Positions 37,746-44,831 of a DNA stretch of 64,000 nucleotides are shown here, in pieces (positions within the stretch are counted from its first letter, which is position 1; each line of letters begins with the position of its first letter). Under the pieces are notes generated by a model that made no database searches, had not been told where the DNA came from, and was given only the letters and a program-made list of their open reading frames with translations. The DNA comes from Elsinoe ampelina (taxonomy: Eukaryota), in contig ML992511.1 in assembly GCA_010093995.1 (NCBI GenBank), positions 1,020,172 through 1,084,171 of the forward strand, given 5' to 3'. The position numbers were made by a program, and so were the translations under genes.

Positions 37746-38073
37746 ATTGTGTGGTGATTTGGAGCGATTTCTCTGAGCCTGTCGCGTCTGTGTAGATTTC
37801 TTCGAAGATTGAAGTCGCGGAGTGGAAAAGTTTAACCGAAGACAGGCCGGCGGAACGGCAACAAGCGCGACCGCGGGGGAGCCCAGCCCTCGGATCTTGA
37901 AGGCGACCTGAATGAGGGGGTTCACTAAACCATCAACGGTCCTCCATGATCCATTGTTCGGATGCGGTTTGTATACTCTGACATCTCTTCGTCTATCCTC
38001 TATCTTAATTGTAGCATCATTGACTTTGTAGCACACTCTGATCTGGCATAAAATTACCACACTCCTCTCAGCC

Positions 38074-39590
38074 ATGACATCTAGGCCGGTACCATTCTCT
38101 GAGCCTCCTTGGCTGTGCGGTATACCAAGTCCATACTACACACAATCGCATCGAACCTTCCAGAAGAAGTGTCGGGCGTTTGTGGAGGAGAATCTACTGA
38201 AGCATGCCATGGATTGGGAGCGAGAAGAGACAGTGCCCGAGCATGTCTTCGAGGTCTTTTCAAAAGCGCACATGCTCATTCCATCTCTACCAGCACCTCT
38301 ACCTGTCGAACGTCTGAAGAGTCTCGGTATTCACGACATCCTTGGTGTCAAGGTGGAGGAATGGGATGCCTTCCATGGGTTGATCGCCGGCGACGAAATG
38401 CTCCGCTCCGGCCTTGCTGGACCGCCTGGGTCTCTTACGACCGGTATAGCATTTGGTGTCCCGCCCATACTCAAGTTTGGAAGCAAAGAACTTCAGGATA
38501 AATTCCTACCAGATTTGCTTACTGGTAGGAAAAGGGCATGTATCGCCATTACTGAGCCTGACGCCGGATCCGACGTCGCAAACATACAGACGACAGCCAC
38601 CAAGTCAGCCGATGGCAAGCACTACATTGTTAGTGGCACCAAGAAGTGGATCACGAATGGAATCTGGAGCGATGTGGCCGCAATGGCGGTTCGTACTGGC
38701 GGTCCAGGCGCTGGCGGATTGAGCATGCTGGTAGTACCACTCAAGGGCTATCCTGGAGTTAGCATGAGACGTCTAAAAGTTGCTGGCCAAATCTCGGCTG
38801 GAACCACCTACATCGAGCTTGACGAGGTCAAGGTTCCTTTGGAGAACATCATCGGCAAGGAAGGAGAGGGTATGCGGTATATCATGACCAAGTAAGTAGA
38901 CGTTGTCCGCCTGGTAGTATATGCTTTGATACTACCAGGTTTGTCACCACTGGCACGATTCAGTTTTGATCAGCACTGACTGCGGTAGCTTCAACCATGA
39001 ACGCTTGACAATTGCGATAGGTGCTACCAGACAAGCACGTGTGGCGTTGAGTGCAGCCTTCGCCTACTGTCTCAAGAGGGAGGCATTTGGCAAGACACTG
39101 ATGGAGCAGCCTGTGGTGCGCCACCGGTTGGCAAAGTGCGGCGCGCAGCTCGAAGCACAATGGGCATGGGTTGAGCAGTTCGTCTATGCCATGACGAAGA
39201 TGTCGAAGGAAGAGGCGGATATCGAGCTTGGTGGCTTGACAGCTGCGGCAAAAGCACAAGCTGCGATGGTGCTCAACGAGTGCAGTCAATGTGCTGTTCT
39301 CCTCTTTGGTGGCAACGGATACACGAGGTCGGGGCAGGGAGAGATTGCTGAACGTTCGTACCTTGGTTGAATGCTGCCGAAGTCTTGCTGATATTGTTTT
39401 AGGGATATACAGGGAAGTGCCCGGAAATCGAATTCCGTAAGTTTTCCTCCAAGGAGCTTTCATATCAGCACTGACAAATCACAGTGGAGGTAGCGAAGAC
39501 GTCATGCTTGACTTGATGATCCGGCAGCTGGTCAAAGTGTATCAACGGGGAGCAGGGGTGGAAAGACCAAAAGGATCGTCCAAGTTATAA
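38074..39590 (+). CDS. Acyl-CoA dehydrogenase, predicted peroxisomal (PTS1 -SKL), 4 exons
   Basis: [40 protein letters not shown]. The spliced C-terminus ends GSSKL*. Confidence 0.92.
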
Positions 39591-41948: not shown

Positions 41949-44213
41949 CTACTCCCTCCCAGCCAACTCCACCACCCTCCCCGCCGCCTCCTCAAACCCA
42001 TCAAAAGCCTCCAACTCCAACCCGGACTCCTGAATCTTCCTCTGCCCCACCTCCTCATTCGTCCCCCTCAACCTCACCACAACCGGCACACCCCTCATAT
42101 CTACCTCCTTGAACGCCAGTATAATCCCGTCGGCAATCATCCCACAATCCGTCAGCCCGCCGAAGATATTGACGAATATAACCCGGACTCTCCCGTCGGA
42201 TAAGATCAGCTCGAAACTCTTCTTCACCGTCGCGCTGGTCGCCTTGCCCCCGGTGTCGAGGAAGTTGGCGCACGAACCGTTATACGGAGGCAGGGAGAGG
42301 ACGTCCACCGTGTTCATCGCAAGTCCGGCGCCGTTGACCAGCGTCCCGATGTTGGCAGAGGGGGAGTCGGGGGACAGCGTGATGTAGACTATGCCGTGGT
42401 CTTCCGCGGCGACGGAACGGGCGTCTTCTCGCGTCTTGTCGCGGAGGGCGAAGAGGTCGGGTTGGCGGGAGGCGGATTTGAAGGCCGCGTCGTCGAGGTG
42501 GATTTTCGGGACGGAGAGGAGGGGTTTGGAGTCCGTGACGGTCAGCAGGGCGGTGACCGAGATGGCTTCGTGGCGTTTTTGGAAGGAGGCGAAGGCTGTG
42601 TAGATATTGGGGAGGAAGGGGAGGCAGGTGGTGTGCGGGGTGGGAGAGGTGGTGGATGCGCGTCCGCGGTCGTTGTACGTTTGGATCTGCGCCTCGATGT
42701 GGGCGAAGTGGTGTTTGGTTATGCCGAAGGAGAGGTCGAAGGAGACCCCGCGGTTGGCGTTGTGGATCATGGCGTTGGGGCGGTAGATGGTACGTGGTCG
42801 GCCTTGGAGGCGGTTGATAGAGACGCCGACTTCGACGGCCTTGGATGACTTTGGTAATTTGGTGTCGAATGGAATGGATGGTAAGAGAGGCTGGAGCAGA
42901 TCGCACGCTTGTGCTCCCTTGATGTGCAAATGTCGTCGCTGGGATGTTATGGGCTGGGTTCTGTTCCAAGCAGGTCGCGTGCTTGTGTGATATCCCCTAC
43001 GCTGACCCGGGAGGGTAGATGCAGATGAAGTCGGAGTGTTGGACGAATTCTGACGTAAATGTCAGACTGGTTCTGGAGGAATGGCAATGTACTTACTTGC
43101 GGCATAGATCTTCGAGCGTGGAGTATGGCTTTTAGGGTAGGACCAAACTGCTCGGGATGATCGCACATTATTACGCCAGCTCCTTCGAGAGCTTCGTACT
43201 TCATCTGGGCAGTGCCTTCAGTCGGTCCTTGAAAGGCTCCAGCATGACCATTGATGCGGTTGCCTGGAGCGGTGCGGCCAGCGACCAAAGCTACAATGGG
43301 TCTGTCAACGTCAGCAAAGAGCATAGACTGCTGTGAATACATCGCTCACTTTGGGTTCTTCGTATTAAGCCGATAGTTCTTGATCTCCTTCGCGACAGCT
43401 TCCTCGGCATTGCCACCTACCTCGCCCACGATGACAATGGCATGAGTATCCGGATCGTGTACCAAGACCTTGAAGCCATCCACTAGGGTCGTTCCAGACG
43501 CAACGTCTCCGCCTGTGCCTATGCATATACTTTGGCCGAGTCCAGCGCGAGTAAGCGATCCGACTGCCTCGTAACTGAGGGTACCAGACTTTGCCACAAC
43601 GCCGACATGTCCTGGCTTATAGATTGGTAAAGGTTGAAATCCAATTCTGCAGTACCCTAGAGGGGCTATTATACCAGGGGAATTAGCTCCTACAAAGCGG
43701 CTCTTGTTGGTGGTTCTCAGGATCTCTCCGATCTGTTGTCATATCAGTGAAGTGTACGACATCTCGCGAGCAGGCAAAGCCTACCCTCAGAATATCATGA
43801 ACAGGAATATGTTCGGCCACAGCTACAATCAGAGGGATTTCCGCTTCAATAGCCTCCTCAATCGCCATTGCCGCCCCTGTCATGGGCACAAAGATGGCGG
43901 TGGCATCTGGTTTCAGTTGCTCTTTTGCCGCTCGTACTGAAGGGCATACTGGTAGACCCAAATGCTCGCCATCTTTGCCTGGGGTGACGCCTCCGACAAC
44001 CTGCGTGCCCCATTCAAGAGATTCTTGTGCATTGCTTGTCGCCACTCTGCCAGTGAATCCCTGGTAAATGACTCGAGTGTGTCGACCTATACGAAGGTGT
44101 TGCAGTGTCTTTTCTTGTAATTTGGCTGGATCCTGGTGTACAGAGCGGGTACTGGTACTACAAGTCCCCAGTCGTCTTTTGAGGTAAGATCGAGTCACAG
44201 AACTCGTGAACAT
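41949..44213 (-). CDS. Fused succinyl-CoA-ligase-like alpha + beta subunit protein (ADP/GDP-forming acyl-CoA ligase family), 4 exons, mitochondrial
   Basis: Alpha motifs: QGFTG, VGGVTPGK, KSGTLSYEA, GEVGG, GHAGA. Beta motifs: NGAGLAMNT, NFLDTGG, NIFGGL, VRLRGTN. Three GT-AG introns join these in one frame without a stop. Confidence 0.88.
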
Positions 44214-44831
44214 GGTTGGAGATTGTTGGTCGGCGTAGGTCAGCTTCCAGCTCGTCGACTAAGATGGTATTAAGAGTTCCGATGTGCCCATCCACAGAAA
44301 TGTCCAATCCCAGATTCTCAAGTTGTGTAGTTTTGTAGATACCAATGTCTCTTGCACGGGTCAATGATTAAAACCGTTGACTATATCGTTATAGATCACG
44401 ACCGAGGAAAGTTTGCCGAGTTTTGCTCTTGCAATTCCCATCACAAACCAGCACGAACCAAGCCGAAGTCGGACGATCACCAATTGCAGTGATCTGTCAC
44501 CAAAATCAATGGTGGAAGGACATGTCGTTGGCCTTGCAGAGACACCCCCACATGAACCATGACGTTGGGTCCTCCGCCCACAGTGCGGCCAGACTTGCGG
44601 GGGAAGACAATCCACATTTTCCGGCGCGCGACCAATTGAAGATTACTTGCATACCTCGGGACCGGTGTTTGCAAACTCACAATCCTGGAGCACAAGACAT
44701 GTCATCCGGACATCATACCGGCCACAAAGTGAAAGTGGGAGAAGTCCTTTGACGAACCCGCTTCACCTCACGTCGCTCATTCCAACCTGGTCGACCGACC
44801 TGACTTATCACCACAAAGACACTCATCCCCA

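What the first reader, a model, noticed from the sequence alone, without database searches (positions are those of the whole stretch)
41949..44213. Alpha-beta fused succinyl-CoA-ligase-like polyprotein with an internal mitochondrial-presequence-like linker
Seen: splicing the third intron (GTAAGT at about 43096 to CAG at about 43050) joins the complete alpha subunit, including phospho-His GHAGA, in frame to a beta-like subunit. The linker is NSSNTPTSSASTLPGQRRGYHTSTRPAWNRTQPITSQRRHLHI: Arg/Ser/Thr-rich, free of acidic residues, with two QRRx-hydrophobic motifs like MPP cleavage sites. The N-terminus is also presequence-like. Established: canonical SCS subunits are separate genes, and MPP cuts tandem precursors internally (yeast Arg5,6). 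Inference: one gene delivers a stoichiometric heterodimer after import and cleavage. The beta ATP-grasp half is short and diverged, so the enzyme may have a different acyl substrate or nucleotide use.
Basis: partly seen in the sequence, partly recalled or inferred. Interest (0 to 1): 0.75.

Follow-up and report, generated by a model that had tools for sequence, protein, structure and literature searches.

The report
Fused nucleotide-blind succinyl-CoA ligase paralogue
Many filamentous fungi carry an extra gene that joins the two halves of a Krebs-cycle-like enzyme through a leftover mitochondrial import signal, probably cut after import, and the second half has lost its ATP/GTP site, so it must do something other than the normal Krebs-cycle step.

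Summary
The fusion is real. Four exons give 705 aa. All three introns are spliced in public contigs guessed to be RNA, and one contig covers all four exons. 114 of the 120 listed longer relatives are the same alpha-beta fusion. Canonical alpha and beta genes lie elsewhere in the genome.

The linker is a retained beta presequence. Two motifs are conserved (Arg 114/114 and 112/114) around a variable, Arg-rich, acid-poor spacer, and the second sits exactly at the mature beta N-terminus. Reverse-order beta-alpha fusions of the same clade carry the same kind of motif. Cleavage itself is untested (about 0.75).

An 85-residue deletion removes the ATP-grasp lid and 13 of 17 nucleotide-contact positions in 114/114. 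The CoA/phospho-histidine site stays near-invariant and its acyl-pocket loops have changed. Best guess: an MPP-split heterodimer doing nucleotide-free acyl-CoA chemistry, such as CoA transfer through phospho-His.

No describing paper turned up in ten searches. This scan noted the same family on three other genomes.

The parts
43785..44213 (-). Exon 1 (residues 1-143): N-terminal presequence and CoA-binding domain
   Evidence: PF02629 E 2.7e-19; spliced contigs
44142..44213 (-). Predicted N-terminal mitochondrial presequence, residues 1-24, ending R23-S24
   Evidence: sequence; pLDDT <50 for residues 1-26; family N-termini R 15.7%, D+E 0.2%; cleavage point inferred
43733..43784 (-). Intron 1, 52 nt
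   Evidence: 3 of 4 runs
43350..43732 (-). Exon 2: alpha domain 2 with power-helix motif SGTL (Ser192) and Glu247 (E. coli Glu208-alpha equivalent)
43302..43349 (-). Intron 2, 48 nt
   Evidence: 4 of 4 runs
43097..43301 (-). Exon 3: phospho-His loop GHAGA and end of the alpha half
43244..43246 (-). Codon of catalytic His290, kept in 113 of 114 relatives
43050..43096 (-). Intron 3, 47 nt; its removal joins alpha and beta halves in frame
   Evidence: 3 of 4 runs, both studies
41949..43049 (-). Exon 4: linker, lid-less ATP-grasp remnant and CoA-ligase domain 5, to the stop codon
   Evidence: PF00549 E 3.1e-21; no ATP-grasp Pfam hit at E 0.1
42984..43004 (-). Linker site 1, Q355-T361 (Q-[KR]-R-G-[YFLM]-H-T), predicted MPP cut after G358
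   Evidence: R 114/114, H 113/114, T 110/114; cut position inferred
42942..42983 (-). Arg-rich acid-free spacer, residues 362-375; variable in sequence, constant in composition
   Evidence: pLDDT <50 for 341-379
42921..42941 (-). Linker site 2, Q376-I382, homologous to the presequence/mature junction of canonical beta; predicted cut after H379
   Evidence: R 112/114, L 111/114; same logo in 77 canonical betas; model residue 380 aligns to SucC residue 1
42837..42866 (-). Short loop (about residues 401-410) standing in place of the deleted 85-residue ATP-grasp lid
42066..42245 (-). Domain-5 loops with family-specific changes: DTGGK (K608), GGLT (T639), R-x-R-G-T (R667)
   Evidence: 113, 112 and 113 of 114 fusions; 0 of 77 canonical each
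44214..44489 (-). 5' leader covered by contigs, with two upstream ORFs (26 codons from 44441, 10 codons from 44291)
   Evidence: contigs cannot fix the true start

Best explanation
One transcript makes a 705-aa precursor (shown). It is imported into the mitochondrial matrix by its N-terminal presequence (inferred, about 0.9). MPP then cuts at two internal sites and drops a 21-residue spacer, giving an alpha' chain and a beta' chain of about 35 kDa each, in 1:1 supply, as for Atp25 (inferred, about 0.75). The two chains assemble as an SCS-type dimer with an intact CoA/phosphate/acyl site and phospho-His, but no ATP/GTP site (loss shown at sequence and model level; lack of binding inferred, about 0.9). 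It can therefore run only the first two SCS steps: acyl-CoA + Pi to acyl-phosphate to phospho-His + acid, and back. Run forward with one acid and backward with another, this is a phosphate-dependent CoA transferase that moves CoA, probably from succinyl-CoA, onto a different and likely more anionic or hydroxylated carboxylate (inferred, about 0.45 given the rest).
For: Fusion. Linker: site 1 and site 2 conserved at 0.83 and 0.63 against 0.28 and 0.29 for the flanks. Between the sites R is 22.6% and D+E 1.2%, like canonical beta presequences (15.7%, 1.8%) and unlike another loop in the same proteins (D+E 18.6%). The linker is disordered in the model. Site 2 falls on the mature beta start. The site-1 motif also occurs in 37 of 114 N-termini but in 0 alpha and 2 beta folded parts. 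6 of 8 reverse-order fusions examined carry it just before their alpha half. Atp25 has two internal MPP sites around an MTS-like stretch, both used (PMC5063612, passages). Dead nucleotide site: canonical residues 55-139 gapped, which holds 13 of the 17 contact positions listed in PMC2440562 (passages); the Asp220 equivalent is kept in 7 of 114, the Asn206 equivalent in 9, the Glu197/204 equivalent in 40. Live first site: H290 113/114, E247 114/114, E134 113/114, SGTL 113-114/114, NGAGLAM 112/114. In the ATP-grasp remnant 6 of the 9 columns at 95% or more conservation are alpha-contact positions of a modelled dimer (Fisher p 8e-5), so the remnant is kept as a scaffold. The phosphate loop has also decayed in unfused or otherwise fused betas of the same clade (Trichoderma, Amorphotheca, Xanthoria). 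The three-step SCS mechanism is stated in PMC2440562.
Against: No cleavage, location or activity was measured. Neither site matches the strict yeast consensus [R][AFR][FLY]/[AKLS][HSTQ] quoted in PMC5063612; both fit only the loose R-X/hydrophobic rule (PMC8847149). In a more diverged set the strict site-1 motif was found in 24 of 34; most misses are near variants by eye, but P0253 (Pyricularia) has an acidic linker and the Trichosporon reverse fusion has none. The crude presequence score peaked in the linker in 95 of 114 fusions but at the junction in only 4 of 8 reverse fusions. A 47-residue linker is probably long enough for an uncut protein to fold, as the single-chain model does (pTM 0.85). 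SCS partial reactions show substrate synergism (abstract start of PMC6963543; a title in the reference list), so the first site alone may be slow. No substrate clue from neighbouring genes. Fungi already have family I and III CoA transferases (recalled).
Confidence: 0.4

Rival explanations
1. Cleaved polyprotein whose halves mix with the canonical enzyme: alpha' pairs with canonical beta to give an ATP-using ligase of changed specificity, while beta' is a chaperone, storage partner or brake on TCA-cycle SCS.
For: A model of alpha' (28-340) with the canonical beta of the same genome scored 0.87 against a best control of 0.65; runs agree in at least 99% of contacts, partner pLDDT 88. The mark was reached by 51 of 78 solved and 2 of 108 mismatched microbial pairs (39 of 65 and 2 of 126 in eukaryotes). 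This pass may come from likeness to solved SCS structures and does not tell which family member binds. Cleavage would be what frees the halves to swap.
Against: alpha' and beta' each fall in a fungal non-canonical clade (98 and 99 SH-aLRT), so they look like a dedicated pair. beta' domain-5 active-site loops carry invariant new residues, which a passive brake would not need.
Confidence: 0.2
2. Nucleotide-free enzyme with another exit for the phosphate: net acyl-CoA hydrolysis (an ADP-independent bypass, or repair of side products such as malyl-CoA), or phospho-His passed to a protein or small molecule through the opened second site.
For: Same loss of the nucleotide site and retention of the first site. 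The lid deletion leaves that face of the domain open.
Against: The remnant surface near the old site is not conserved apart from alpha contacts, which argues against a new binding site there. Hydrolysis wastes energy.
Confidence: 0.17
3. The protein is not cut, or only partly cut: the linker is a fossil presequence or an internal import aid, and the enzyme works as one chain.
For: The single chain folds well in the model. Some members have lost the motifs. Internal presequence-like stretches are known to aid import without cleavage (recalled). The sites miss the strict yeast consensus.
Against: Two point motifs, not just composition, are conserved across Dothideomycetes, Eurotiomycetes, Sordariomycetes, Leotiomycetes and Lecanoromycetes while the flanks drift, and they recur in reverse-order fusions.
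Confidence: 0.18
4. Catalytically dead pseudo-enzyme kept as a CoA or acyl-CoA sensor or scaffold.
For: No route to load phospho-His from ATP; the canonical enzyme covers the TCA step.
Against: Every first-site catalytic residue checked is near-invariant.
Confidence: 0.05

Closest known systems
Mitochondrial succinyl-CoA synthetase (Lsc1/Lsc2; human SUCLG1 with SUCLA2 or SUCLG2; E. coli SucD/SucC)
   Same: Alpha half superposes at Z 38.2, rmsd 2.0 A over 306 residues on 7MSR_A; beta half at Z 26.4, rmsd 3.4 A over 296 of 385 residues on a SucC model. Domain order 1-2 then 4-5; His, Glu and power-helix motifs kept.
   Different: One gene instead of two. Subdomain 3 (lid) and the nucleotide contacts are absent. 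Acyl-pocket loops read GGLT, DTGGK, RxRGT instead of GGIV, DVGGG, RLQGT. It belongs to a separate fungal paralogue clade.
Atp25 (S. cerevisiae composite precursor)
   Same: N-terminal presequence plus two internal MPP sites flanking an MTS-like stretch (PMC5063612, passages).
   Different: Atp25 yields two unrelated proteins and its cuts are shown. Here the products are the two subunits of one enzyme and the cuts are predicted.
Arg5,6 / Neurospora arg-6
   Same: Fungus-wide fusion of two partners of one complex, with a presequence-like junction (PMC8734313, passages and Discussion). That paper calls Arg5,6 the only widely conserved example it knew and has no occurrence of 'succinyl'.
   Different: Arg5,6 mirrors a bacterial operon. 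This fusion joins two nuclear mitochondrial genes, as the kept beta presequence shows, and the opposite order also exists.
Fused acyl-CoA synthetases (ACD family, ATP-citrate lyase, bacterial beta-alpha SCS fusions)
   Same: Same superfamily, with subdomain shuffling and single-chain forms (PMC11494057, passages; bacterial-type beta-alpha fusions).
   Different: Those keep an ATP-grasp unit with lid and a permanent linker; this one has no lid and a presequence-type linker.

Membership tests
Succinate-CoA ligase (NDP-forming) | Alpha subunit with CoA-binding Rossmann domain and phospho-His loop | tested here: met
Succinate-CoA ligase (NDP-forming) | Glu208-alpha equivalent and both power-helix motifs | tested here: met
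   E247 114/114; SGTL 113-114/114; NGAGLAM 112/114
Succinate-CoA ligase (NDP-forming) | Complete ATP-grasp with lid, Lys46 and GGRGK loop | tested here: not met
   gapped in 114 of 114; GGRGK 0 of 114 and 0 of 34 more diverged members
Succinate-CoA ligase (NDP-forming) | Site-II residues Glu197, Asn199, Asp213 (E. coli numbers; role of Glu197 from PMC10342173, the other two labels recalled) | tested here: not met
   kept in 40, 9 and 7 of 114; none in this protein
Succinate-CoA ligase (NDP-forming) | Succinate-binding GG[IV][VM] loop (role recalled) | tested here: not met
   NIFGGI[VM] 0 of 114; GGLT 112 of 114
Succinate-CoA ligase (NDP-forming) | NTP-dependent succinyl-CoA formation | not testable with these tools
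   needs an assay
MPP-cleaved composite mitochondrial precursors (Arg5,6, Atp25) | One transcript and one reading frame for two separable proteins | tested here: met
MPP-cleaved composite mitochondrial precursors (Arg5,6, Atp25) | N-terminal presequence | tested here: inconclusive
   composition and disorder fit; no TargetP or MitoFates available
MPP-cleaved composite mitochondrial precursors (Arg5,6, Atp25) | Conserved presequence-like stretch at the junction | tested here: met
   by composition and homology to canonical beta presequences
MPP-cleaved composite mitochondrial precursors (Arg5,6, Atp25) | MPP recognition motif at the junction | tested here: inconclusive
   loose R-X/hydrophobic rule met at both sites; strict yeast consensus not met
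MPP-cleaved composite mitochondrial precursors (Arg5,6, Atp25) | Demonstrated internal cleavage by MPP | not testable with these tools
   needs import or in vitro MPP assay

The most novel reading that the evidence does not exclude
A fungal SCS-superfamily enzyme that has dropped nucleotides altogether and works as a phospho-histidine CoA transferase, a chemistry not described for the known CoA-transferase families. It is delivered as an MPP-cut polyprotein, and its two genes fused more than once in opposite orders (alpha-beta in Pezizomycotina, beta-alpha in Taphrina and in lichen fungi), each time keeping the downstream presequence as the cut site.
Probability: 0.25. Interest if true: 0.85.

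Novelty: new variant of a known kind. Interest (0 to 1): 0.64.

Why it matters
It would add a second kingdom-scale example of an MPP-cut fusion of complex partners beside Arg5,6. Fusions in both orders give a natural test of why such polyproteins are kept. Independently of cleavage, hundreds of fungal proteins labelled 'succinyl-CoA synthetase alpha subunit' cannot be ordinary TCA ligases, which matters for fungal metabolic models. A version with the first site only makes the two-site mechanism of SCS directly testable in a natural protein. Orthologues exist in a tractable model (A. nidulans AN1193).

Tried and rejected
Gene-model artefact: rejected by spliced contigs. Merged models do occur in the hit lists (Penicillium 1460-1469 aa, Aspergillus 888-903 aa, and insect beta-beta whose second copy mostly keeps its own Met-started presequence), so this check mattered. 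The run search listed no holder on record as RNA; the laid contigs skip GT-AG introns, which is why I read them as transcripts.

Other intron-3 acceptors: those at 43002, 42954 and 42939 would be in frame and remove part of the linker; none was seen in contigs.

First beta alignment forced the linker into the lid gap. It was discarded and redone from site 2.

Single-sequence fold of the beta half failed (pLDDT 30.7) and was not used. The careful beta tree did not finish; both trees are quick IQ-TREE runs with SH-aLRT only and midpoint roots. Labels of unnamed outgroup rows are my guesses from motifs. No test_one_clade was run.

Gene neighbourhood gave no pathway clue (23 ORFs scanned, 11 with a Pfam hit). 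A third, intact-ATP beta paralogue was sought in this genome and not found (2 matches only).

Literature: ten searches found no paper describing this family. The library lacks most subscription journals, and supplements were read for one paper only. Two structural papers on the phospho-His loop and succinyl-phosphate were not held, so the acyl-pocket and general-base roles rest on recall. Stand-alone split forms of alpha' or beta' were not searched with the 'shorter' option.

Full report
Gene structure. On the minus strand, exons 44213-43785, 43732-43350, 43301-43097 and 43049-41949 join through three GT-AG introns into 705 codons, identical to database protein P0001, which the source labels as a succinyl-CoA synthetase-like protein of Elsinoe ampelina. 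Contigs of 4 public runs from 2 studies skip exactly these introns. Intron 3 is skipped in 3 of 4 runs, and one contig spans all four exons. The runs are only guessed to be RNA, and contigs cannot show ends or rare forms. Two runs carry strain differences that change two residues near the C-terminus. The genome also has a canonical alpha, a canonical beta and a third weaker alpha-like match on contig C2.

Family. A search with exon 4 among longer proteins gave 725 hits of 7999 candidates scored. Of the 120 listed, 114 are 600-800 aa alpha-beta fusions from Dothideomycetes, Eurotiomycetes, Xylaria and Mycena; the other 6 are insect tandem betas and merged Penicillium models. Later searches added Sclerotinia, further Sordariomycetes and lichen fungi. 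Orthologues are A. nidulans AN1193 and A. fumigatus AFUA_1G10830. AN1193 appears in a proteomics supplement with 2 peptides, 1 unique (PMC8306328, supplementary table row). That is weak evidence that the protein is made; the 'mitochondrion' label there is an annotation, not a localisation.

The linker. Between the alpha C-terminal helix and the beta half lie about 47 residues, with pLDDT below 50 for 341-379 in a model that is otherwise confident (mean 84.7). Column counts over all 114 fusions show two conserved islands: Q106-x-R114-G95-[YFLM]-H113-T110 and Q105-x-R112-x-L111. Mean modal conservation is 0.83 and 0.63 against 0.28 and 0.29 for the flanks. Site 2 has the same logo as the presequence/mature junction of 77 canonical fungal betas; these are the 77 of 120 listed that were full length, and 43 partial ones were dropped. 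Structurally, model residue 380 aligns with residue 1 of SucC. So the fusion kept the beta presequence. In the 99 proteins where a regular expression located both sites (of 104 tried; 10 of 114, this protein among them, were skipped by the pattern), the sites are a median 25 residues apart, the stretch is 22.6% Arg and 1.2% Asp+Glu, and 73 of 99 have no acid at all. A composition score trained on canonical beta presequences peaked in the linker in 95 of 114. In 34 less redundant, more diverged members the strict site-1 motif was found in 24; that set overlaps the first in kinship. Against cleavage: neither site fits the strict yeast consensus, a few members have lost the signal, and an uncut chain can fold.

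Reverse-order fusions. Taphrina deformans P0404 and unnamed P0254, P0258, P0405 and P0410 have a lid-less beta before alpha; lichen proteins P0413 and P0416 are also beta-alpha. Six of 8 reverse fusions examined have R-x-[FM]-[SH]-[TS] just before alpha; P0405 has a near variant and Trichosporon P0393 has an acidic linker. They form groups apart from the alpha-beta fusions in both trees. I infer more than one fusion event, but the deep branches are unresolved and a rearrangement after one fusion is not excluded.

The beta half. Aligned from site 2, all 114 fusions lack canonical residues 55-139, the subdomain-3 lid that closes over ATP in this superfamily (PMC11494057, passages). Thirteen of the 17 nucleotide-contact positions listed for pig SCS (PMC2440562, passages) lie in the gap. 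GGRGK and E[IV]NP occur in 0 of 114 fusions and 77 of 77 canonical controls. The controls are close kin of each other, but human and pig chains keep the same motifs. Structure comparison aligns 296 of 385 SucC residues. What stays conserved in the remnant is the alpha-binding surface: 6 of 9 columns at 95% or more are contacts in a modelled alpha'/canonical-beta pair. That model may pass by likeness to solved SCS, and I use it mainly as a contact map.

The first site. His290, Glu247, Glu134, the SGTL and NGAGLAM helix ends and the domain-5 loops are near-invariant. Three loops near the acyl pocket differ family-wide from canonical SCS: GGLT for GGIV, DTGGK for DVGGG, RxRGT for RLQGT. A Thr, a Lys and an Arg are gained, which suggests a more polar or anionic acyl group; the pocket assignment is recalled, not checked on coordinates.

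Origin. Quick trees put both halves in a fungal non-canonical clade: for beta, a 99-support branch separates 24 canonical, insect and bacterial rows from 52 others; for alpha, 30 rows group at 98. The clade includes unfused betas with an intact ATP site (for example Rhizodiscina and Aspergillus) and others where the phosphate loop has decayed (Trichoderma, Amorphotheca, Xanthoria). This suggests that the nucleotide site became dispensable in this paralogue more than once, though some of those may simply be decaying genes.

Mechanism. SCS works in three steps, and only the last needs nucleotide (PMC2440562). A dimer with the first site only can form phospho-His from an acyl-CoA and phosphate and can reverse that with another acid. 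Net CoA transfer is the simplest productive use, and I rank it first (0.4 for the whole account). Subunit swapping with the canonical enzyme (0.2), an uncut protein (0.18), hydrolysis or phosphate donation (0.17) and a dead sensor (0.05) follow. Substrate synergism in SCS is a caution, seen here only in an abstract start and a reference title.

Comparison and novelty. As a precursor it works like Atp25 and Arg5,6 (PMC5063612, passages; PMC8734313, passages and Discussion); membership is likely but cleavage is not shown. As an enzyme it is SCS-derived but fails the nucleotide-site test, so it should not be filed as an NDP-forming succinate-CoA ligase. Ten searches of the held library found no description. 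Three earlier notes of this scan reached the same reading on other genomes; they are not independent evidence, and my reading was recorded before seeing them. Added here are the transcript-level junction, the reverse-order fusions, the paralogue-clade trees and the interface analysis. Verdict: real, widespread, a new variant of a known kind, interest 0.64.

Noticed in passing
P0066, P0084, P0086, P0242 (Mycena): Basidiomycete Mycena carries the alpha-beta fusion, and its copies nest with Saccharata and Lasiodiplodia (98 SH-aLRT in the beta tree, 88 in the alpha tree). This suggests horizontal transfer from a dothideomycete; no topology test was run.
   Followed up: partly
P0404, P0254, P0258, P0405, P0410, P0413, P0416, P0393: Fusions of the same paralogue pair in the opposite order (beta then alpha), most with a presequence-type motif at the junction.
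   Followed up: partly
P0415, P0417, P0418, P0421-P0423, P0475, P0480, P0490, P0503: A further unfused fungal SCS beta paralogue of about 410-450 aa, intact in some species and with a decayed phosphate loop in Trichoderma and Amorphotheca; not found in this genome.
   Followed up: partly
P0347 (Atractiella), P0309 and P0402 (Ustilago, Ceraceosorus): Basidiomycete relatives: a doubled lid-less beta, and stand-alone divergent alphas, hinting at an unfused nucleotide-free pair in Basidiomycota.
   Followed up: no
P0039, P0040, P0048, P0089, P0406-P0409, P0411: Hymenopteran 850-950 aa beta-beta proteins. In 7 of 9 the second copy keeps a Met-started presequence, so these are probably merged models of neighbouring paralogues, or read-through. 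The first copy lacks GGRGK in 5 of 9.
   Followed up: partly
P0273, P0274, P0276, P0291, P0302, P0319, P0324, P0350: Unnamed, prokaryote-like single-chain beta-alpha SCS fusions of about 700 aa with an intact GGRGK; a separate group.
   Followed up: no
window 44259-44441 (minus strand): Two short upstream ORFs (26 and 10 codons) in the 5' leader covered by contigs; possible translational control.
   Followed up: no
P0507, P0509, P0531, P0068, P0091: Longer Aspergillus and Penicillium models look like merges with neighbouring genes; the Penicillium ones carry a carnitine acyltransferase domain, and the A. fumigatus cluster includes a protein labelled adenylylsulfate kinase.
   Followed up: no
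window 41949-42900: The beta half has much higher third-position GC (about 0.8) than the alpha half (about 0.45) and switches from C-rich to G-rich near its end.
   Followed up: no
window 38032-38895 (+): An acyl-CoA dehydrogenase gene lies about 3 kb from the 3' end of the fusion gene; no evidence of linkage.
   Followed up: no
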